Below, one piece after another: positions 1-45,168 of a DNA stretch of 45,168 nt; positions within the stretch are counted from its first letter, which is position 1; every line of letters begins with the position of its first letter. The notes under the pieces were generated by a model. The model was not told where the DNA came from. It did no database searches and saw only the letters and a program-made list of their open reading frames with translations. The stretch is taken from the UHGV virus genome UHGV-0041136. One strand, given 5' to 3'. The stretch is from a virus. Made by a program: the position numbers and the translations under genes.

Positions 1-304
1 ACAGCTTAATAATTGGGATAGTGACGCCGATGTGTAAGGCGAAGCGGGCCAGTGACGGGGGTTTATCCTGAATCAGTGGGCGTTCGTCGCCCTTAGACGT
101 AGGCACAAGTTCCCATGACGTGCGGTCGAAGAACTCGATTAACGCATCGCAATAGTCCGGGTCCCACAACGCGGCGGAATTACGGGATGATTGATAAAGG
201 CTCTGTTTGCCGCGTGGTCGTTTACGGCGACGGTTTGCGCTAACAGCTTCTTCATGTGCAGCTTGCACCACCTCTGGCGATGGCTGCTTGAGTTTCAGCT
301 TCAT
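1..304 (-). CDS. terS: terminase small subunit, N-terminal part (runs off window start; continues in frame at window end)
   Basis: ATG at 304..302 preceded by AAGGGGA; frame open to position 1; translation MKLKLKQPSPEVVQAAHEEAVSANRRRKRPRGKQ...DKPPSLARFALHIGVTIPIIKL has a basic N-terminus and HTH-like segment; lies just upstream of terL across the junction. Confidence 0.5.
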   Translation of the reverse strand, partial: MKLKLKQPSPEVVQAAHEEAVSANRRRKRPRGKQSLYQSSRNSAALWDPDYCDALIEFFDRTSWELVPTSKGDERPLIQDKPPSLARFALHIGVTIPIIKL

Positions 305-321
305 AGAATCCCCTTGCGTAT

Positions 322-363
322 GCGTCTGACCATCAGAGCGCATCAGACGCGCCCTACGCGTCT
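322..363 (-). repeat. repeat cluster in terS 5' leader (GCGTCTGA, CATCAGA x2 spaced 10 bp, TCAGACGC inverted copy, ACGCGTCT)
   Basis: read directly: tgcGTCTGAccATCAGAgcgcATCAGACGCgccctACGCGTCT between a TATAAT-like hexamer (375..370, minus) and the terS ATG. Confidence 0.4.
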
Positions 364-2647: not shown

Positions 2648-3136
2648 TCAACCTTTCACCGCGCGCCCAATAGCCTCTGCCTCCCGCCACGGTTTACCAT
2701 CGAACAGCGCCAGGCGACCGGCGGTACGACGACGCAGACCAAGTAATGGTTTGCCATTCTGGTTGATGAACAGCGCCAGCTTAGCCCGCAGCGTCGCAAC
2801 ATCACCAGAACGCAGCGCCTTACCAGTGCCAGTAGTAGCCGCAATCACGCCAGCGCCTGCGTTATAGACCAGGTCACACACTGCGTCGAACTGTGCCTGT
2901 GTCAGTGAATGGTGTGCCGCTGCATCAACCGCAGCTACGGCTTTAGCCATATCGCGATTCAGTAACAGGAGGCCCTGACCTGGGGTGATGGTCTTACCCG
3001 GTGTTACATCCGGCCCATAGTGACCGTACCCAATAGTCAGGTACTTCTCATTCGGCGTAGCGCGATACGCAGTACCGCGGAACCCCTCGAACGCAGCGGT
3101 AAAATGCAATCCATTATCTGATATATTTCGAGACAC
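2648..3136 (-). CDS. endolysin, T4-lysozyme-like (GH24) muramidase
   Basis: FEGFRGTAYRATPNEKYLTIGYGH matches the GH24 catalytic region; GTG start at 3136 with GGAGGA SD 7 nt upstream (track ORF begins at an unlikely TTG 3187). Confidence 0.8.
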   Translation of the reverse strand: MSRNISDNGLHFTAAFEGFRGTAYRATPNEKYLTIGYGHYGPDVTPGKTITPGQGLLLLNRDMAKAVAAVDAAAHHSLTQAQFDAVCDLVYNAGAGVIAATTGTGKALRSGDVATLRAKLALFINQNGKPLLGLRRRTAGRLALFDGKPWREAEAIGRAVKG

Positions 3137-3386
3137 GCTTATGTCCTCCGTATGACAACCACGCCTGGCGAATCTGACGCAGCGCAACTAATGTGATTAA
3201 TGTTTCTGGCAGCGTCGGCGACATGCTGCCCTGTAGCAGGTGGATGCATCCGGCGGCGCAGACAATAGCGGTCAGGATATAGAGCACCCGACCAAATAGC
3301 CCGTCGTCAACACTCGGATGATACACATTAAACAGCGATGCGCCCCCGATTGCCAGCATACCGCCGAACCAGAATAACTCATTCAT
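3114..3386 (-). CDS. 2-TM membrane protein between holin and endolysin (second holin / antiholin candidate)
   Basis: ATG 3386 with GGAGG SD, overlaps holin stop; MNELFWFGGMLAIGGASLFNV...LYILTAIVCAAGCIHLL has two hydrophobic helices. Confidence 0.45.
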   Translation of the reverse strand: MNELFWFGGMLAIGGASLFNVYHPSVDDGLFGRVLYILTAIVCAAGCIHLLQGSMSPTLPETLITLVALRQIRQAWLSYGGHKRVSKYIR

Positions 3387-3687
3387 CCGGGCCTCCTCGA
3401 CGCGAGATGTATTCTCCGGCGACGATACCGGAGAGGCGGGAATAGATAGGCATCCAGAGGACAGCAATAATAAATCCGAGGCCAGCTATCTCACGTTCGC
3501 CGGTAATGCCAAACCATTGAGCAGCAAGAGGTGCGCCAAATACGGCGCAAGTGAAGCCGGTTGCGATAAAGCAGAAGCCATCGATAGGGCCAGAAATAAC
3601 GGACTTATGTTGCCGCAGTCCGATTACCCCTCCGGCTAGTGCGGCAGCGAGAAGCCACCCCGTCACTGTTTCAGTAAATTTATCCAA
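3379..3687 (-). CDS. holin candidate (about 3 TM segments)
   Basis: TTG start at 3687 with GGAGGA SD; three hydrophobic segments and charged C-terminus; first gene of the lysis cassette. Confidence 0.5.
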   Translation of the reverse strand: MDKFTETVTGWLLAAALAGGVIGLRQHKSVISGPIDGFCFIATGFTCAVFGAPLAAQWFGITGEREIAGLGFIIAVLWMPIYSRLSGIVAGEYISRRGGPDE

Positions 3688-18899: not shown

Positions 18900-19220
18900 A
18901 TGAAACGTATTACCGCAATTGCAATCACTCTGGCCGCTGTTCTGGGCTGCTCGTATGTGGGGTCCGCCGCTGCCGTCACTCCGGTCGAAATGTGCCAGGA
19001 GCTGGCCGAAATGGGAGGCGTTATTGTCGACGCCCGCAACCGTGGCGACTCGCTGGAAAACGTAACCAGCATTATCAACGGCAGCGATATGACCCCGAGC
19101 CTTAAAGCGGGCATGACGCGCATCGCCATTACGATCTACAGCAATCCGTCGCTGAAACGCGCCGATGTTGTGGCGTATGGGTTTAAGGGCTGTATCGACG
19201 GAATGTCGGAGGATATGTGA
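18900..19220 (+). CDS. putative lipoprotein / secreted protein
   Basis: ATG 18900 with AGGAG SD; signal peptide MKRITAIAITLAAVLGC with lipobox-like VLGC. Confidence 0.5.
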   Translation: MKRITAIAITLAAVLGCSYVGSAAAVTPVEMCQELAEMGGVIVDARNRGDSLENVTSIINGSDMTPSLKAGMTRIAITIYSNPSLKRADVVAYGFKGCIDGMSEDM

Positions 19221-30059: not shown

Positions 30060-30089
30060 TTGCACACCCCAATATAATAGGGTACTATT
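30060..30089 (+). promoter_or_regulatory. conserved promoter element, plus strand (-35 TTGCAC, 17 bp, -10 TACTAT) with AATAGggtaCTATT
   Basis: cTTGCACaccccaatatAATAGggTACTATTcac, 28 nt upstream of ATG 30117. Confidence 0.5.
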
Positions 30090-30116
30090 CACCTGTAACT
30101 TACTGAGGAAATAATT

Positions 30117-37566: not shown

Positions 37567-38268
37567 TTATTTCCTCAGGGCTTTAAGTTGCCGTTCAAAT
37601 TCGGCAGGGTTCGATTTATACAGAGCTAAACGCTCCGCTTCACTCATGTCTTTAAACGCTGGTGCGGCCCCGCCGCCTTTGCTACCGGAAGCCCCGCCGC
37701 CGGAAGCTGCATTTGCTTTAATCAAATGCGAAAACGCTTTGTGTTCACGCAGGTATTTGCGGAACTGTTCCGGGTCAGTCGTGATTACATTACCGTCTGC
37801 GCCGACAAACTTAGTAACCACATCATCACCTTCGAACTCAGTCTTAACGAACGGAGCAAGAATGTCCACTGCTTCCGGGGTAATAAAGTCACCCGCGAAA
37901 GAGCCTAACACCGCTTTACGTTCGCTGCCGAGGATGCGCTCCGCCATTCTGGAGATACGACCATCTTTCTCAGCTAACACCGGGTCATACTGGCTACGAA
38001 TCGTTTTTTCGAACTCGTCCATCTTACCGGCGGCTTTTAACGCCTCCTGGTGTGCGCGCTGCCGTTCTTCTTCGGCCTCTTTCGCTTTACGAGCGGCTTC
38101 TTTCTTCTCCGCCAGCAATGCGTCCTGATTGGCCTTAAGCCCGGCGACTTCTTTCTCAATCAGCGCCTGAACTTCTTCAGCGGTGAACATTTTCGGCGCA
38201 TCACCGCCGCCAGCTTTATCTTCTGCTCCAGCTTCTTCCTGGAACGGATAACGTAAAAAACGATTCAT
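37567..38268 (-). CDS. scaffolding protein
   Basis: ATG 38268 (track begins at GTG 38322); charged alpha-helical A/E/K-rich 234 aa upstream of capsid gene. Confidence 0.55.
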   Translation of the reverse strand: MNRFLRYPFQEEAGAEDKAGGGDAPKMFTAEEVQALIEKEVAGLKANQDALLAEKKEAARKAKEAEEERQRAHQEALKAAGKMDEFEKTIRSQYDPVLAEKDGRISRMAERILGSERKAVLGSFAGDFITPEAVDILAPFVKTEFEGDDVVTKFVGADGNVITTDPEQFRKYLREHKAFSHLIKANAASGGGASGSKGGGAAPAFKDMSEAERLALYKSNPAEFERQLKALRK

Positions 38269-38350
38269 AGTCAGTATGTCCCCTGGACGTTGGAACCCGG
38301 GCCACCCGGATTTACATGTCAAGAATAAATTATTCCAACATGCAAGGCAA

Positions 38351-38614
38351 CTATTCCAGAATATTCCTCACGTAATCCTGCAACATGAACACTTTCAGGC
38401 GCAATTGCCGTACACATTCGGCGTTCTGAACGTCGATAGCCAAATCCTCGTCGGCGTCGCTACTTGGCGGGGCCAGTTTGCACGGCGGCTGCATCATCGT
38501 CGTATCCGGGGATGGAATTGGCGTTTGCGACGGCGCGGGACTTGAGCTGCACGCGCTCAGGGTCAAAAGTGCACATGCTGCGACCAGGCGTTTTAATGTA
38601 CTTAACGACTTCAC
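38351..38614 (-). CDS. o-spanin candidate (outer-membrane lipoprotein, Rz1-like)
   Basis: GTG 38614 with GAGGTGA SD; signal + lipobox ...ALLTLSAC; proline-rich mature part; overlaps the i-spanin gene in another frame. Confidence 0.55.
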   Translation of the reverse strand: MKSLSTLKRLVAACALLTLSACSSSPAPSQTPIPSPDTTMMQPPCKLAPPSSDADEDLAIDVQNAECVRQLRLKVFMLQDYVRNILE

Positions 38615-38846
38615 GGGTGATCACCTCTGATTTCGTCTTGCCTTCGTTGTCAGCGGCGGCGGCCTTTGATTCGTCCTGCTGCTGCCGTTGTGTTTTCTTC
38701 GCTAACTCGGCCTGGGCTTTTTGCTGTTGCTGCGAAACGAGATTCGCCCGACCCTCGTTCCAGCCGATGCGATACTGGTAGATGCCGTGTGCGTAAGCCA
38801 GGATGATGAAACATGCTCCCGCTACGACAGTTGCTTTAAGATTCAT
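38460..38846 (-). CDS. i-spanin candidate (Rz-like)
   Basis: ATG 38846 with AAGGAG SD; N-terminal TM helix then Q/A/K-rich periplasmic helical region. Confidence 0.55.
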   Translation of the reverse strand: MNLKATVVAGACFIILAYAHGIYQYRIGWNEGRANLVSQQQQKAQAELAKKTQRQQQDESKAAAADNEGKTKSEVITREVVKYIKTPGRSMCTFDPERVQLKSRAVANANSIPGYDDDAAAVQTGPAK

Positions 38847-39096
38847 GTTTCTCCTTTCTCGATAAGTAAAGCCCCGCCATAAAGCGGGGCGCTAGTCCTT
38901 ATCATTTAAACATAGAAACGGCGTAATCTCAGTAAACCAGTTACTTTTTACACAAGCAATAGAGTATGGCCCTTCCGAACGCGTCAGCGTAACTACACTC
39001 AGGACTTACGTCCCGCTCCGTTACCTGCCCGCGCCGCGGTCGCTTGCGATATCTCACAAGCTCAGGTGGAGCTTATCATATTTTTAGTGAAAAGTC

Positions 39097-39112
39097 AACT
39101 ATTCGAATAGTT
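39097..39112. repeat. perfect 16-bp palindrome AACTATTCGAATAGTT
   Basis: read directly; contains the CTATT/AATAG half-sites in everted arrangement, about 55 bp upstream of the promoter at 39165. Confidence 0.45.
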
Positions 39113-39163
39113 TATTCCAACATTTACAATTGAGCGGAATAACTGGAATAGGTAAACAAATAG

Positions 39164-39215
39164 TTTGCAGACACCAATATAATAGGGTACTATTCAGTTA
39201 ACTTAAACAGGAGGT
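39164..39215 (+). repeat. 52-bp direct repeat, copy 1 (promoter + leader + SD of cassette B)
   Basis: identical by eye to 41828..41879. Confidence 0.6.
39165..39194 (+). promoter_or_regulatory. conserved promoter element (-35 TTGCAG, 17 bp, -10 TACTAT) with AATAGggtaCTATT
   Basis: TTGCAGacaccaatatAATAGggTACTATTcag then AGGAGG and ATG 39221. Confidence 0.5.
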
Positions 39216-39220
39216 AGTAT

Positions 39221-40033
39221 ATGCAACATGTGATCAGTTTTTCAGGCGGCAGGACATCAGCGTACACAACCCTTGAAGTGCTTAAACTTCACCCCGATGC
39301 TGAGGTCATCTATATGGACACCGGGGCGGAGCACCCCAAGACCTACGAGTTCATCCGCAATTTTGCTAAGCACTTTAATATTGCAGTGACGTGCCTCAGG
39401 GTTGTTCCTAACCCGGAGATGCGTAAGGCCAGCACCTATGAAGTCCTTAGCGTAGATGAAATAGGTCCTGACCTGGAGCCATGGCGCAGAATGCTGCGCA
39501 AGTACGGCCACCCATACGTCGGTGGCGCGTTCTGCACAGACCGGATGAAGACGGTGCCGTTCACCAAATACTGTGACGAGAAATACGGTAAAGGCAAATA
39601 CGACAGATGGCTTGGCATCCGCTGTGATGAACCTAAGCGCCTGGTAAACAGGAAAGAGGGGTTCCACTATCTTGCAGACATCAGCGACTTCGAAAAACAG
39701 GACATTATTGACTGGTGGGCAAACCAGGAATTTGACCTTGGTATAGAGGAGCACTTGGGTAACTGTGTTTTTTGTATTAAAAAGAGCCTACAAAAAGTAG
39801 CACTGGCCGCTAAGGATGAACCACAGTTGGCTGAACAATTTTGGGAAATGATTCAGGAAGAAGACATAAAGCGGGATAAGGTTATGTACCGGTCCAACAG
39901 AAGCCTCGGCGAGGTTATCGCGCTGTTCCGGGATGAGGGTAGGGGTGAGCTTGCGTCTCGTATGCGGTCAATGCGGCAGTACGACACAGGGTCATGTAGC
40001 GAAAGTTGTGAGGCGTTTGGGGGTGGCGAATGA
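39221..40033 (+). CDS. PAPS-reductase-like PP-loop ATP pyrophosphatase family protein
   Basis: PP-loop ISFSGGRTS at N-terminus, YMDTGAEHPKTYEF, GAFCTDRMKTVPF; Cys-rich C-terminus GNCVFC...GSCSESC. Confidence 0.65.
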   Translation: MQHVISFSGGRTSAYTTLEVLKLHPDAEVIYMDTGAEHPKTYEFIRNFAKHFNIAVTCLRVVPNPEMRKASTYEVLSVDEIGPDLEPWRRMLRKYGHPYVGGAFCTDRMKTVPFTKYCDEKYGKGKYDRWLGIRCDEPKRLVNRKEGFHYLADISDFEKQDIIDWWANQEFDLGIEEHLGNCVFCIKKSLQKVALAAKDEPQLAEQFWEMIQEEDIKRDKVMYRSNRSLGEVIALFRDEGRGELASRMRSMRQYDTGSCSESCEAFGGGE

Positions 40034-40251
40034 TTACCGAAAAGCACGACAATGGCTCCATTTCTATTGATACCAATGATGGAAGGCATTTCTTTGCCCA
40101 CTTCATTAATGGCTCGTACAACTTGATAGAGGTTGTATCTGGCGGTTGTGTGGGAATAGGCAGAATTAAAGACGAGGAAAACATTAATCGCATAATACTG
40201 AGATGGGTCGAGCTTAACAAAGAGGTTCCACTCGCAGAGCCACTTAAATAA
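40030..40251 (+). CDS. hypothetical small protein coupled to the PAPS-reductase-like gene
   Basis: ATGA overlap. Confidence 0.45.
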   Translation: MITEKHDNGSISIDTNDGRHFFAHFINGSYNLIEVVSGGCVGIGRIKDEENINRIILRWVELNKEVPLAEPLK

Positions 40252-40255
40252 AACT

Positions 40256-40280
40256 AAGGCCCCACTATGGGGCCTTTTAT
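40256..40280. terminator. bidirectional terminator AAGGCCCC-actat-GGGGCCTT + TTTT
   Basis: A-run on one side, T-run on the other; between convergent gene ends. Confidence 0.55.
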
Positions 40281-40741
40281 CATTCTGGCTTAGTAACCTT
40301 CGCCGCCTTGCTTACCGCCTCTACACCATCGGTATCGGTAACTTTAACGAAGTATTCGCCGACAGCATTAACCGTCAGAGACAAAGCCTCTTCAGGTGCG
40401 TTGACAACTTCCTTTCCGTCTTTGTACCAGGTCAGAGCATATGGCGCTTTCCCCGCTTTAACTTCGACAGTGATAGTTGCGCTGCCGTCGGTCAGTTCAA
40501 CGTCCTGCGGTTGCACAGAGAAGTACACGTCACCAGCGTCCGCCAGATACGGAATCTCGTAAAGCATGCCCGCCGCGGGTAGCGCAATACCGGTTTTATC
40601 CGCAAACGGCATATCGTCTACCGGTGTACCTAGTACACTTTCATCTTCAATAAACACCACGTTCTCGCCGGAGCCAGATACGCGGGCGTACTGGACTACA
40701 CGACGTGATGGCACATCAGTTACTTTGAAAAAGCCCATCAT
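40280..40741 (-). CDS. Ig-like domain protein
   Basis: ITVEVKAGKAPYALTWYKDGKEV...EYFVKVTDTDG matches the Ig-like pattern also seen at 36109..36453. Confidence 0.5.
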   Translation of the reverse strand: MMGFFKVTDVPSRRVVQYARVSGSGENVVFIEDESVLGTPVDDMPFADKTGIALPAAGMLYEIPYLADAGDVYFSVQPQDVELTDGSATITVEVKAGKAPYALTWYKDGKEVVNAPEEALSLTVNAVGEYFVKVTDTDGVEAVSKAAKVTKPE

Positions 40742-41784: not shown

Positions 41785-41827
41785 ATGCCCTCCTGTGGTA
41801 TCGCCAGTGTAACGCATAAAAATAATA

Positions 41828-41879
41828 TTTGCAGACACCAATATAATAGGGTACTATTCAGTTAACTTAAACAGGAGGT
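41828..41879 (+). repeat. 52-bp direct repeat, copy 2 (promoter + leader + SD of cassette C)
   Basis: identical by eye to 39164..39215. Confidence 0.6.
41829..41858 (+). promoter_or_regulatory. conserved promoter element (-35 TTGCAG, 17 bp, -10 TACTAT) with AATAGggtaCTATT
   Basis: same sequence as 39165..39194; ATG 41885. Confidence 0.5.
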
Positions 41880-43679: not shown

Positions 43680-44930
43680 TTAAAGTGCGAAAGTCACCGG
43701 GATGTTGATTACGGGTTTAACCACCGGCATCTCGTAAACTACAGGATAGCCGAGAGCGTCCGCCATATGGTCAATAACGCCATCTTTAGCAGGCTCTCCG
43801 TTATCGTCATATGCCTGCTGCTCCAGCGTCTTCGCTATCTCAGGGCATAAGTGGTCGTTAACCCACAGCTTACCTTTTTCCAGTGCGGTATTCACGGCTA
43901 AAACACGGTCTTTAACCGGAGGGTTGGCAGATTTAGCGCGAACATCAAACCCGGCCTGCTGGAGTAATGCAATATCAGAGATTGATGCTGAGTTTGTCTT
44001 GCGGTTCTTGCCGCTGGCGTCCGGGTAAACGACGATGCGGTGGCCTTGTGACTTCCACTTCTCCGTAATCACTCTCACGGTGTCCGGCGTATCGAACAGG
44101 CCTTTCAGTTCTGCTACCGCGTGCCAGCCGTCTTTGCGCTGTACGTATACGGCGCTTGCGTTCTTCGTAACGTTGAAGTCCTGCCCGATGTATAGCGTGT
44201 CGCCTGGTTGGATTGTCTCTTTGCTGCGGTGCTTGCGTCGGTCATACGCGTAATACACGCTGCCGGAGGTAAGGTTGACGAACTCACCATTCAAATACGC
44301 GTTAATCAGTTGCGCGGGGTAAGTCTCGGTCAGTGAGCTAATGTAGTCAGGTGGCAGGAATCTCGCGTTCTCGTGAGTGGATGCCTGCACCATCGAGTAA
44401 CTCGGCGTCGGGTTCTCTTTGAACTTGGCGTAGACGAACTTGAACCCTTCCGGTGTCGTGGTAACGGAGATGTGGTTAATTACGCCAGGGATAACAAGAC
44501 GCATACGGGCGACAATTTTGTTCCATGCCAGTTCCGCTTTCTCACGGCTAAGTACATCGAGCTCATCCACGACAGCGGCCGCGATTTTGAAACCGACTAT
44601 CGAGCCGGGGTTATCCATCGAACGGCAGATAACGGTCCCGAGCACAGTCTTACCGCGAGTAACCACGACTTCTTTGTCACCGGATTTAACCAGCACATCG
44701 AGGCCGAGCAGGTTAGCAGCTTCCTCGAATGTCGGGTAAAAGATGTCACGTATGGCCGGGTATGTCGGGCCGAAGTAGCCCAGGCGCGTACCGGGGTGCT
44801 TGAGCATAAACGTAAGCAGGTCAAGGCAGCCGACAAACGTCTTGCCGCTACCGAAGCCGCCGACATATGCCTTGTATTTGTTATCGCAATTCAGGAACAG
44901 CGCCTGAGGGGCGGATAGCTGAATACTCAT
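43680..44930 (-). CDS. terL: terminase large subunit
   Basis: Walker A YVGGFGSGKTFVGC near N-terminus; acidic nuclease-type C-terminal half; ATG overlaps terS stop. Confidence 0.85.
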   Translation of the reverse strand: MSIQLSAPQALFLNCDNKYKAYVGGFGSGKTFVGCLDLLTFMLKHPGTRLGYFGPTYPAIRDIFYPTFEEAANLLGLDVLVKSGDKEVVVTRGKTVLGTVICRSMDNPGSIVGFKIAAAVVDELDVLSREKAELAWNKIVARMRLVIPGVINHISVTTTPEGFKFVYAKFKENPTPSYSMVQASTHENARFLPPDYISSLTETYPAQLINAYLNGEFVNLTSGSVYYAYDRRKHRSKETIQPGDTLYIGQDFNVTKNASAVYVQRKDGWHAVAELKGLFDTPDTVRVITEKWKSQGHRIVVYPDASGKNRKTNSASISDIALLQQAGFDVRAKSANPPVKDRVLAVNTALEKGKLWVNDHLCPEIAKTLEQQAYDDNGEPAKDGVIDHMADALGYPVVYEMPVVKPVINIPVTFAL

Positions 44931-45168
44931 TCCTCTACCTCGCCCATGTTCGTTGTTACGATTTTACCTACAGGCTCTGCAACACTGAAAATAATCTCGG
45001 TAGGGGTTGTTTCTTCGGTCGATTCAACTGGTTTCTCTTTGCCGAGGCCCAGCTTAGCTGCGGCAAACGTAGCAGAGATGCCGGCCGCGCCTGTCTCAGT
45101 GAAGTACGCCTCTTCCAGCGCCTGCGCGGTCTCCCAGGCTTCGGCAAATGCGGGAATCTCGCGCAGCC
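44927..45168 (-). CDS. terS: terminase small subunit, C-terminal part (starts beyond window end; joins 1..304 in frame if circular)
   Basis: minus frame open from 45168 to TGA at 44929..44927; ...LREIPAFAEAWETAQALEEAYFTETGAAGISATFAAAKLGLGKEKPVE...NMGEVEE. Confidence 0.5.
   Translation of the reverse strand, partial: LREIPAFAEAWETAQALEEAYFTETGAAGISATFAAAKLGLGKEKPVESTEETTPTEIIFSVAEPVGKIVTTNMGEVEE

What the first reader, a model, noticed from the sequence alone, without database searches (positions are those of the whole stretch)
38351..38846. Overlapped i-spanin / o-spanin pair located about 10 kb from the holin-endolysin cassette, inside the head gene cluster
ORF 38460..38846 has an N-terminal TM helix and a helical periplasmic domain. 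ORF 38351..38614 starts inside it in another frame (GTG with SD), has a lipobox (LSAC) and a proline-rich body, and extends past its end; this is the overlapped spanin architecture. It sits between the scaffold gene and cassette B, far from the holin and endolysin at 2.6-3.7 kb, so the lysis functions are split between early-promoter and late-operon contexts.
Basis: partly seen in the sequence, partly recalled or inferred. Interest (0 to 1): 0.45.

Follow-up and report, generated by a model that had tools for sequence, protein, structure and literature searches.

The report
Known overlapped spanin gene pair

Summary
On the minus strand, a 128-aa ORF (38846..38460) has an N-terminal membrane helix. 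An 87-aa ORF (38614..38351) starts inside it in the +1 frame at a GTG with its own Shine-Dalgarno. It has a lipoprotein signal (L-S-A-C22), a Pro-rich linker, and runs 109 nt past the first ORF's stop (155-nt overlap).

The second frame is a real gene. In 47 related loci plus the window (48 pairs) it is open with a lipobox (seven variants). Its non-overlapped part shows third-codon-position wobble in its own frame.

The window is a circularly permuted Kagunavirus genome (Guernseyvirinae). The pair is 96-97% identical in DNA to K1ind1 gp06/gp07 ("Rz-like spanin") and belongs to the "Jersey" overlapped spanin family of Kongari et al. 2018. That family has the same 155-bp overlap and the same constant o-spanin Cys45/Cys67. 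Its position between the Hoc-like decoration gene and the scaffold gene, about 9 kb from holins and endolysin, is conserved in 46/46 loci and already published.

The "early versus late promoter" clause is untested.

Verdict: real, correctly interpreted, already known. The most interesting item is incidental: a conserved promoter plus a roughly 220-nt structured leader directly upstream, with no Rfam match.

The parts
38460..38846 (-). i-spanin gene (128 aa; ATG at 38846; type II inner-membrane protein)
   Evidence: ORF listed. phrog_2536 'Rz-like spanin' E=7.6e-56. Same length as K1ind1 gp06. 60-98% aa identity to 47 homologues, with periplasmic Cys92 invariant in 48/48.
38778..38834 (-). Coding region of the i-spanin transmembrane helix (residues 5-23)
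   Evidence: Kyte-Doolittle 19-residue mean of 1.72. AlphaFold2 single-sequence helix 3-63, pLDDT 78-91 over the first 30 residues.
38351..38614 (-). o-spanin gene (87-aa precursor, GTG start, +1 frame; 66-aa mature outer-membrane lipoprotein)
   Evidence: ORF. phrog_5672 E=4.5e-30 and phrog_1267 E=9.9e-21. Same length as K1ind1 gp07. Wobble periodicity in its own frame in the non-overlapped part.
38549..38614 (-). o-spanin signal peptide (residues 1-22), with lipobox L19-S20-A21-C22 encoded at 38549-38560
   Evidence: PROSITE-type lipobox rule met at C22 only. A lipobox is kept in 48/48 relatives despite sequence turnover. No Asp at +2 in any of them.
38460..38614 (-). 155-nt region read in two frames (i-spanin C-terminus; o-spanin signal peptide and Pro-rich linker)
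   Evidence: The same 155-nt overlap occurs in all 37 Kagunavirus-type loci where my first script called the o-spanin ORF. Kongari 2018 reports 155 bp for phage Jersey.
38622..38627 (-). Shine-Dalgarno GAGGTG for the o-spanin, embedded in i-spanin coding sequence
   Evidence: Read directly from the sequence; 7-nt spacer to the GTG.
38851..38856 (-). Shine-Dalgarno AAGGAG for the i-spanin
   Evidence: Read directly from the sequence. Conserved as AAGGAG or AAGGGG in 20 aligned leaders.
38871..38890 (-). GC-rich hairpin (terminator-like, weak U-tract) ending 24 nt before the i-spanin ATG
   Evidence: Terminator scan. Seven pairs are 100% paired in 19 distinct leaders, with CG<->GC and GC<->AU compensatory changes.
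38847..39069 (-). Conserved, structured 5' leader of about 220 nt for the spanin-scaffold-capsid unit (inferred, not mapped)
   Evidence: MFE -85.4 kcal/mol, z=-4.13. 31 consensus pairs are 97.8% paired, against 32-48% for slid controls; 8 pairs have compensatory changes. A covariance model finds one copy directly upstream of the i-spanin in each of the 49 related loci that hold the gene (50 with the window). No Rfam match.
39070..39098 (-). Sigma-70-like promoter: TTGACT (39098-39093), 17-nt spacer, extended -10 TGaTAAGCT (-10 at 39075-39070). Inferred.
   Evidence: Read from the alignment. The TGNTA[AC]GCT motif is present at the same offset in all 46 loci examined. The generic promoter scan did not pick it up.
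3379..3687 (-). Holin 1, part of the distant lysis cassette
   Evidence: phrog_2359 holin E=5.9e-29. K1ind1 gp44 is its counterpart.
3114..3467 (-). Holin 2 (longest ORF; the PHROG match starts at residue 28, so the true start is probably near 3386)
   Evidence: phrog_2508 holin E=2.6e-33. K1ind1 gp45 is 273 nt.
2648..3187 (-). Endolysin (longest ORF; the true start is probably near 3133)
   Evidence: phrog_7 E=1.8e-39 and phrog_33703 E=3e-47. K1ind1 gp46 is 486 nt.

Best explanation
The locus encodes a two-component spanin of the 'Jersey' family. This is the third functional class of lysis proteins in phages of Gram-negative hosts.

Shown from sequence:
- One mRNA segment is translated in two frames.
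- The i-spanin is made from ATG 38846. Its features are a short cytoplasmic N-terminus, a TM helix at residues ~5-23, and a ~105-residue periplasmic domain that starts as a long helix and has one invariant Cys (C92).
- The o-spanin is made from an internal GTG at 38614 with its own SD. Its signal peptide ends in lipobox LSAC. The features indicating outer-membrane sorting are C22 with Ser at +2/+3.
- The 66-residue mature o-spanin has a Pro-rich linker, two invariant Cys (C45, C67) and a highly conserved acidic/helical C-terminus.

Inferred from the established Rz/Rz1 model (Summer 2007; Berry 2012; Rajaure 2015; Kongari 2018):
- C22 is lipidated, LspA cleaves the signal peptide, and Lol sorts the protein to the inner leaflet of the outer membrane.
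- The C-termini of the two proteins bind, and disulfide-linked dimers form a bridge across the periplasm through the murein mesh.
- When the holins at 3.1-3.7 kb trigger and the endolysin removes the peptidoglycan, the complexes are freed. They collapse and fuse inner and outer membranes, completing lysis.

Genomically, the pair is the promoter-proximal cargo of the scaffold-capsid transcription unit rather than part of the holin-endolysin cassette. This placement is fixed across Guernseyvirinae.
For: - Exact ORFs, start codons, SDs, 155-nt +1 overlap, TM helix, lipobox, Ser at +2.
- PHROG 'Rz-like spanin' hits: 7.6e-56 for the i-spanin; 4.5e-30 and 9.9e-21 for the o-spanin.
- 96-97% nt identity to more than 70 phage records, many of which annotate the two genes as spanins. 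K1ind1 gp06/gp07 have identical lengths.
- Kongari 2018 places K1ind1-3, K1G/H, SETP3 and Jersey in one overlapped spanin family, with a 155-bp overlap and constant o-spanin Cys45/Cys67. These are the same positions as here.
- 48/48 pairs keep an o-frame lipobox (seven variants), the Cys pattern and i-spanin C92.
- Codon-position diversity shows each frame is protein-coding in its unique part.
- A naturally 'separated' version (L037, 14-nt overlap) and an HNH-split version (fEg-Eco19) both keep two complete genes.
- No other spanin candidate exists in the genome. The only other SD-preceded lipoprotein ORF (18900-19220) is unpaired and of unknown family.
- Synteny Hoc-like, spanins, scaffold holds in 46/46 loci.
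- The genomic separation from the holins and endolysin is published.
Against: - I found no experimental test of any Jersey-family spanin. The function rests on features and on analogy to lambda, P2 and T4.
- There is no detectable similarity to the lambda Rz/Rz1 Pfam families. Only a sub-threshold DUF2514 hit appeared (E=0.011, below the gathering score). NCBIfam has no spanin model hit.
- The C-terminal 45 residues of the i-spanin were not confidently modelled.
- SignalP, LipoP and TMHMM were not available. Signal and TM calls rest on a PROSITE-type rule and hydropathy.
Confidence: 0.93

Rival explanations
1. Only the 128-aa ORF is a gene. The 87-aa +1-frame ORF is a chance open frame in GC-rich sequence, and its 'lipobox' is fortuitous.
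For: Many GenBank records omit it, call it hypothetical, or annotate only a 48-aa C-terminal piece. An example is fBC-Eco01 gp11 at 147 nt. Alternative-frame ORFs of similar length are common in this window.
Against: The frame is open with a lipobox in 48/48 relatives, down to 53% mature-protein identity, and the lipobox sequence and position change while the motif is retained. In the 109 nt outside the overlap, diversity is 0.095/0.039/0.271 by codon position in that frame. It has its own SD at correct spacing. In L037 and fEg-Eco19 it exists as a free-standing gene.
Confidence: 0.02
2. The pair is an envelope membrane protein plus lipoprotein with another role, for example superinfection exclusion or receptor masking like T5 Llp or Cor, not outer-membrane disruption at lysis.
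For: The pair is not next to the holin-endolysin cassette. No member of the family has been tested experimentally, as far as I could find. There is no Pfam Rz/Rz1 match.
Against: The full two-component spanin feature set is present: type II TM partner, +1 overlapped lipoprotein, Pro-rich linker and conserved periplasmic Cys in both proteins. Exclusion lipoproteins are single genes. The genome has no other spanin candidate, although a phage with a holin and a soluble endolysin in E. coli is expected to need one. Spanins unlinked from the holin and endolysin are known, as with T4 pseT.3/pseT.2. There is weak similarity to other spanin PHROGs: 8821, 1152 and 456.
Confidence: 0.04

Closest known systems
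'Jersey' i-spanin/o-spanin families of Kongari et al. 2018 (BMC Bioinformatics 19:326; PMC6139136). Examples: Escherichia phage K1ind1 gp06/gp07, K1G, K1H, Salmonella phages Jersey, SETP3, SE2, wksl3.
   Same: Sequence: 96-98% aa identity to K1ind1-type i-spanins, with PHROG 2536 and 5672/1267 hits. Overlapped architecture with a 155-bp overlap. o-spanin Cys45/Cys67 and i-spanin Cys92. The position between the Hoc-like decoration gene and the scaffold gene. Separation from the holin/endolysin cassette.
   Different: Nothing of substance in the genes themselves. The only local difference is upstream: a 1.05-kb + strand cargo (a PAPS-reductase-like gene plus a 73-aa ORF). None of the 46 IMG/VR loci, and no record in the phage collection, carries it at nucleotide level.
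Phage P2 LysB/LysC (prototype of the overlapped spanin architecture)
   Same: The o-spanin gene starts inside the i-spanin gene in the +1 frame and runs past its end. The same protein topologies are predicted. (Architecture as described in Kongari 2018.)
   Different: P2's pair sits in the lysis cassette next to the holin and endolysin (my own knowledge). Kongari 2018 lists it as a different sequence family. I did not compare the sequences directly.
Phage lambda Rz/Rz1 (Pfam PF03245 / PF06085)
   Same: Same inferred mechanism and the same two-component logic: a type II inner-membrane protein plus an outer-membrane lipoprotein, periplasmic Cys residues and a Pro-rich o-spanin.
   Different: Lambda Rz1 is fully embedded in Rz, whereas here the genes overlap. 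There is no Pfam match at E<=0.1. The lambda genes are contiguous with S and R. The o-spanin here has a conserved, probably helical, C-terminal domain; Kongari 2018 predicts helices for the Jersey o-spanin.
Phage T4 PseT.3/PseT.2
   Same: [quoted passage not shown]
   Different: T4 has the separated architecture and belongs to a different sequence family.

Membership tests
Two-component spanin (functional class; criteria of Summer 2007 / Kongari 2018) | i-spanin: a small protein with a single N-terminal TMD (N-in, C-out) and a largely helical periplasmic domain | tested here: met
   KD19 = 1.72 over residues 5-23. AlphaFold2 helices at 3-63 and 69-83; the C-terminal 45 residues have low confidence.
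Two-component spanin (functional class; criteria of Summer 2007 / Kongari 2018) | o-spanin: a small lipoprotein with a signal peptidase II lipobox and no inner-membrane retention signal (Asp at +2) | tested here: met
   A PROSITE-type rule matches AACALLTLSAC with C22, and +2/+3 are Ser-Ser. 48/48 relatives keep a lipobox and none has Asp at +2. LipoP and SignalP were not available.
Two-component spanin (functional class; criteria of Summer 2007 / Kongari 2018) | The o-spanin gene is embedded in, overlapping, or immediately downstream of the i-spanin gene | tested here: met
   155-nt overlap in the +1 frame, extending 109 nt beyond the i-spanin stop.
Two-component spanin (functional class; criteria of Summer 2007 / Kongari 2018) | Periplasmic cysteines available for intermolecular disulfides | tested here: met
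   i-spanin C92 is invariant in 48/48. Mature o-spanin has two further invariant Cys, at precursor positions C45 and C67.
Two-component spanin (functional class; criteria of Summer 2007 / Kongari 2018) | Required for outer-membrane disruption; complements lambda Rz/Rz1 mutants; the two proteins bind through their C-termini | not testable with these tools
   This needs genetics and biochemistry. I found no published test for this family.
'Jersey' overlapped spanin sequence family (Kongari 2018) / PHROG 2536 + 5672/1267 | Sequence homology of both proteins to family members | tested here: met
   phrog_2536 E=7.6e-56; phrog_5672 E=4.5e-30; phrog_1267 E=9.9e-21. 98% i-spanin identity to the K1ind1-length contig L002. 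96.5% nt identity to K1ind1.
'Jersey' overlapped spanin sequence family (Kongari 2018) / PHROG 2536 + 5672/1267 | 155-bp overlap; o-spanin Cys at positions 45 and 67 | tested here: met
   paper; window.
'Jersey' overlapped spanin sequence family (Kongari 2018) / PHROG 2536 + 5672/1267 | Conserved genomic position: Hoc-like decoration gene, then spanins, then scaffold, unlinked from the holins and endolysin | tested here: met
   46/46 loci with enough flank. K1ind1 and wksl3 annotation. Published statements.
Lambda Rz / Rz1 sequence families (Pfam PF03245, PF06085) | Match to the Pfam HMMs at or above the gathering score | tested here: not met
   No hit at E<=0.1. There was only DUF2514 at 16.2 bits against a cutoff of 26.
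Lambda Rz / Rz1 sequence families (Pfam PF03245, PF06085) | Fully embedded o-spanin gene | tested here: not met
   The o-spanin extends 109 nt beyond the i-spanin stop.
Unimolecular spanin (T1 gp11 type) | A single protein with an N-terminal lipobox and a C-terminal TMD | tested here: not met
   The o-spanin C-terminal hydropathy maximum is 0.37, so there is no TMD. No such ORF exists anywhere in the window.

The most novel reading that the evidence does not exclude
The spanin pair may be the first cargo of a late transcription unit that is gated at the RNA level. A conserved sigma-70-like promoter (39098-39070) is followed by a ~220-nt leader with covariation-supported helices. The leader ends in a terminator-like hairpin 24 nt before the i-spanin ATG. 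This resembles lambda pR'-6S-tR' logic, or a put-like or processing element. It matches no Rfam family, occurs once per genome directly upstream of the spanins across Kagunavirus and Jerseyvirus, and has a paralogous copy in the early region of at least one relative. If it is a genuine cis-regulatory RNA, outer-membrane disruption and head/tail synthesis would be timed by a device separate from the holin-endolysin cassette.
Probability: 0.25. Interest if true: 0.45.

Novelty: already known. Interest (0 to 1): 0.1.

Why it matters
For this window it matters only for annotation. The genome does have a complete lysis set: two holins, an endolysin and a two-component spanin. The o-spanin should be annotated as the full 87-aa lipoprotein precursor. 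Many GenBank relatives instead list a 48-aa fragment or nothing.

Biologically, the unlinked position of the spanins is a known, fixed trait of Guernseyvirinae. It is a useful reminder that searches restricted to the lysis cassette miss spanins.

The untested question of how spanin expression is coordinated with the distant holin clock could be approached through the conserved promoter and leader noted here.

Tried and rejected
- Pfam and NCBIfam scans of both proteins gave no Rz/Rz1 or spanin model hit. The only hits were sub-threshold: DUF2514, and a spurious LppU lipoprotein hit at 21.9 bits against a cutoff of 135. Membership of the lambda families is rejected.
- My first loose lipobox regex picked LVAAC14. 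I rejected it because the h-region would be only four residues, and K8/R9 violate the PROSITE rule. C22 is the lipidated Cys.
- An Rfam scan of 38200-40400 at E<=1 found nothing relevant.
- A second copy of the leader in the window was sought with blastn (word size 7) and with the covariance model run with filters off. There is none.
- The pattern scan ACGCRTTCGGAAGGG in IMG/VR gave 75 loci. Of these, 34 had no leader similarity and are probably chance hits. The scan added only the paralogous copy in L126.
- I tested whether the 38-aa ORF in the leader (39057..38941) is a conserved peptide. It is open in all 19 leaders, but its amino-acid sequence is frame-shifted in L016 and L029, so RNA-level conservation is the better reading. 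This remains unresolved.
- I tested whether the leader sequesters the i-spanin ribosome-binding site. This is seen in the window's MFE, but the Jersey-type leader folds weakly (z=-1.46) and I could not show covariation for it.
- A literature search for Jersey- or Kagunavirus transcriptomics found nothing.
- Single-sequence AlphaFold2 of the i-spanin was informative only for the N-terminal two-thirds.

Full report
**1. What is in the sequence**

The 128-aa ORF runs 38846..38460.
- It starts at ATG, preceded by AAGGAG.
- Its only strongly hydrophobic stretch is residues 5-23 (Kyte-Doolittle 19-mer mean 1.72).
- A polar, Gln/Lys/Ala-rich sequence follows.

The 87-aa ORF runs 38614..38351.
- It starts at a GTG inside the first ORF, in the +1 frame, 7 nt after GAGGTG.
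- It shares 155 nt with the first ORF and continues 109 nt beyond that ORF's stop.
- Its N-terminus is MKSLSTLKRLVAACALLTLSAC. This meets a PROSITE-type lipoprotein rule at C22 only.
- Residues +2/+3 are Ser-Ser, so there is no inner-membrane retention signal.
- The 66-residue mature part has 9 prolines, all within its first 30 residues, and two more cysteines at C45 and C67.

Single-sequence AlphaFold2 models i-spanin residues 3-63 and 69-83 as helices. The last 45 residues are unresolved.

**2. Is the second frame real?**

I fetched 48 related loci from IMG/VR with the i-spanin as query; one of them (L049) carries only a C-terminal fragment of the gene.
- With the window, that gives 48 pairs. 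In all 48 the +1 frame is open and carries a lipobox.
- The lipobox itself varies: LSAC 18, LASC 14, LNGC 10, LSGC 3, and MSAC, LTSC, ITGC once each. The Cys position shifts by one in some.
- The three-Cys pattern of the mature protein and i-spanin Cys92 are invariant.

Nucleotide diversity across 45 distinct sequences, by codon position:

| Segment | Frame used | Pos 1 | Pos 2 | Pos 3 |
|---|---|---|---|---|
| i-only | i-frame | 0.137 | 0.105 | 0.272 |
| o-only | o-frame | 0.095 | 0.039 | 0.271 |

Each frame therefore behaves as coding sequence where it is alone. In the overlap the i-frame pattern dominates (0.164/0.131/0.242). This fits a tolerant signal peptide and linker in the o-spanin.

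Two natural variants keep both genes as separate entities.
- L037 has only a 14-nt overlap and an ATG-initiated o-spanin with lipobox ITGC.
- Phage fEg-Eco19 has an HNH homing endonuclease inserted between the two genes. Its o-spanin carries a new signal peptide.

The 'chance ORF' rival is effectively excluded.

**3. What the window is and where the pair sits**

- The locus is 96-97% identical to many Kagunavirus records (K1ind1-3, Bas70-76, 536P11 and others). It is 71-82% identical to Salmonella Jerseyvirus records.
- The right-hand 25 kb of the window (20169-45168) is about 89-90% identical to the closest records over about 77% of that stretch.
- The window is a circularly permuted complete genome. 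A 194-aa terS ORF spans the junction, and the junction is colinear with K1ind1.
- Minus-strand gene order: holin, holin, endolysin (3687..2648), small genes, terS, terL, portal, head morphogenesis, Hoc-like decoration (40741..40280), [+ strand cassette 39221-40251], i-/o-spanin, scaffold (38268..37567), major capsid protein.
- The circular distance from the endolysin stop to the i-spanin start is 8,969 nt; in K1ind1 it is about 7.7 kb.
- In 46/46 loci with sufficient flank, the order Hoc-like, spanins, scaffold is kept.

**4. Comparison with what is known**

- PHROG assigns both proteins to 'Rz-like spanin' families: 7.6e-56 for the i-spanin, and 4.5e-30 and 9.9e-21 for the o-spanin.
- RefSeq K1ind1 annotates two 'Rz-like spanin' CDSs of identical lengths at the same position. 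One is flagged 'overlapping gene'.
- Kongari et al. 2018 define a 27-member 'Jersey' family as the largest overlapped spanin family. It lists K1ind1-3, K1G/H and SETP3. The paper reports a 155-bp overlap for Jersey and notes constant o-spanin Cys at positions 45 and 67, exactly as found here. It also describes the FSL_SP-031 'separated' relatives.
- The fBC-Eco01 paper says the same for a Kagunavirus.
- There is no Pfam match to lambda Rz/Rz1. The pair is a functional analogue of lambda's, not a detectable sequence relative.
- A genome-wide scan found no unimolecular spanin and no second paired lipoprotein.

**5. Mechanism**

The following are shown: the two-frame coding, the signals for membrane insertion and lipidation, and the conserved cysteines.

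The rest is inferred from the established spanin model:
- LspA/Lol processing sends the o-spanin to the outer membrane.
- The C-termini of the two proteins bind to each other.
- Disulfide-linked dimers span the periplasm within the murein mesh.
- Inner and outer membranes fuse once the endolysin removes the peptidoglycan.

I found no direct experiment on this family, so confidence that it is a functional spanin is high (0.93) but not absolute.

**6. The 'early versus late' clause**

All lysis genes are on one strand. Different promoter-like elements precede them.

A module with consensus TTGCA(G/C)-17 nt-TACTAT contains the inverted repeat AATAG-N4-CTATT. It occurs at five sites:
- 39165-39193(+)
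- 41824-41879(+)
- 30060-30091(+)
- 6496-6461(-)
- 5134-5098(-)

The last copy lies about 1.4 kb upstream of the holins, with no predicted terminator in between. It corresponds to the 'phage promoter' consensus reported for fBC-Eco01.

The spanins are preceded by a different element (see section 7). Separate transcription units are plausible. Timing is unknown, and I found no transcriptome data.

**7. Surroundings worth noting**

Promoter and leader:
- Directly upstream of the i-spanin lies TTGACT-17-TGaTAAGCT (39098-39070, minus strand). The extended -10 motif is found at the same offset in all 46 loci examined.
- A leader of about 220 nt follows. It folds far better than shuffles (z=-4.13).
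- Across 19 distinct Kagunavirus and Jerseyvirus versions, 31 consensus pairs are 97.8% paired, against 32-48% when partners are slid. Eight pairs show compensatory changes.
- The leader ends in a GC hairpin (38890-38871) with a weak U-tract, 24 nt before the ATG.
- It has no Rfam match.
- A covariance model of its 5' domain finds one copy per locus, always at this position. It also finds one paralogous copy in the early region of one relative (L126).
- Its function is open: attenuator or antitermination target, 5' stabiliser, processing site or sRNA.

Insertion hot spot:
- The space between the Hoc-like gene's terminator and this promoter varies from 321 to 1121 nt in relatives and is 1433 nt here.
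- The inserts are + strand cassettes that share the repeated promoter module.
- The window's cargo is a PAPS-reductase-like gene (phrog_33262, 5.7e-104) plus a 73-aa ORF. It has no nucleotide match in 50,697 phage records.

**8. Verdict**

The feature is already known and routinely annotated, so interest is low. The leader RNA and the insertion hot spot are the only items here that might repay further work.

Noticed in passing
window 38847-39098 (minus strand): A conserved sigma-70-like promoter (TTGACT-17-TGaTAAGCT) is followed by a ~220-nt structured leader, ending in a GC hairpin 24 nt before the i-spanin ATG. The window's leader folds with z=-4.13. Across 19 leaders, 31 pairs are 97.8% paired and 8 pairs show compensatory changes. 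There is one copy per genome at this position, in each of the 49 related loci that hold the i-spanin. It has no Rfam family. Function unknown.
   Followed up: partly
L126 8440-8760 (IMGVR_UViG_3300033074_000010): A second, paralogous copy of the same promoter plus leader 5' domain (93 bits with model R1). Its inner hairpins differ but still pair. It is followed by its own terminator-like hairpin and lies just upstream of the counterpart of the window's 6496(-) promoter module. Several GenBank relatives also showed two matching places for the leader query.
   Followed up: partly
window 39221-40276 (+ strand): A moron-like cassette is inserted between the Hoc-like gene and the spanin promoter. 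It holds a PAPS-reductase-like protein (270 aa; phrog_33262 5.7e-104; Pfam PAPS_reduct N-terminal part only), a 73-aa ORF, and a bidirectional terminator at 40256-40276. There is no nucleotide match in the phage collection, and it is absent from all 46 IMG/VR relatives. This intergenic site varies from 321 to 1121 nt in relatives, so it is an insertion hot spot.
   Followed up: partly
window 39159-39215(+), 41824-41879(+), 30060-30091(+), 6496-6461(-), 5134-5098(-): A repeated promoter/operator module, TTGCA(G/C)ACxCCAAyATAATAGGrTACTATTCA (-35 TTGCAx, 17 nt, -10 TACTAT), contains the inverted repeat AATAG-N4-CTATT. It precedes three + strand cassettes inside the structural region and two leftward early-region units, one of which leads to the holins. 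It equals the PHIRE 'phage promoter' consensus published for fBC-Eco01.
   Followed up: partly
window 39097-39112; 39137-39152; 38331-38367: There is a perfect 16-bp palindrome, AACTATTCGAATAGTT, overlapping the -35 of the spanin promoter. An invariant TATTCCAGTTATTCC lies upstream of it. A similar TATTCC cluster (three copies), including TATTCCAGAATATTCC, sits at the o-spanin 3' end and in the spacer just downstream of its stop, before the scaffold gene. These are possible regulator binding sites that share half-sites with the repeated promoter module.
   Followed up: no
L050 3052-4116 (Escherichia virus fEg-Eco19, OL539727.1): An HNH homing endonuclease is inserted between the i- and o-spanin genes. 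This converts the overlapped pair into a separated one, with a new o-spanin signal peptide (MRLPILLLVIWCYGC...) and an altered i-spanin C-terminus. It parallels the T5/Shivani case in Kongari 2018.
   Followed up: partly
L037 4001-4589 (IMGVR_UViG_3300045988_013393): This phage has Kagunavirus-like flanks but a 'separated' spanin pair: a 14-nt overlap, a 118-aa i-spanin and an 81-aa ATG-initiated o-spanin with lipobox ITGC. Only the o-spanin C-terminal domain resembles the window's.
   Followed up: partly
window 18900-19220 (+ strand): The only other SD-preceded lipoprotein ORF in the genome: 106 aa, MKRITAIAITLAAVLGC..., phrog_2315 of unknown function. It lies next to a helicase in the replication region and is unpaired. 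It may be a superinfection-exclusion-type lipoprotein.
   Followed up: partly
window 38941-39057 (minus strand): A 38-aa GTG ORF lies inside the leader; some relatives annotate it as a hypothetical protein. It is open in all 19 leaders and shares an AFGRA.LYC core. In L016 and L029 it is frame-shifted, and it coincides with conserved RNA helices, so it is probably not coding.
   Followed up: partly
GenBank relatives, e.g. L053 2164-2310 (fBC-Eco01 gp11): Many deposited genomes omit the o-spanin, call it hypothetical, or annotate only a 48-aa C-terminal fragment that lacks the signal peptide and lipobox. The phrog_5672 profile is itself only 47 positions long.
   Followed up: no
window 1-343 joined to 44927-45168: The window is a circularly permuted whole genome. 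A 194-aa small-terminase ORF spans the window ends, and the junction aligns colinearly with K1ind1.
   Followed up: yes
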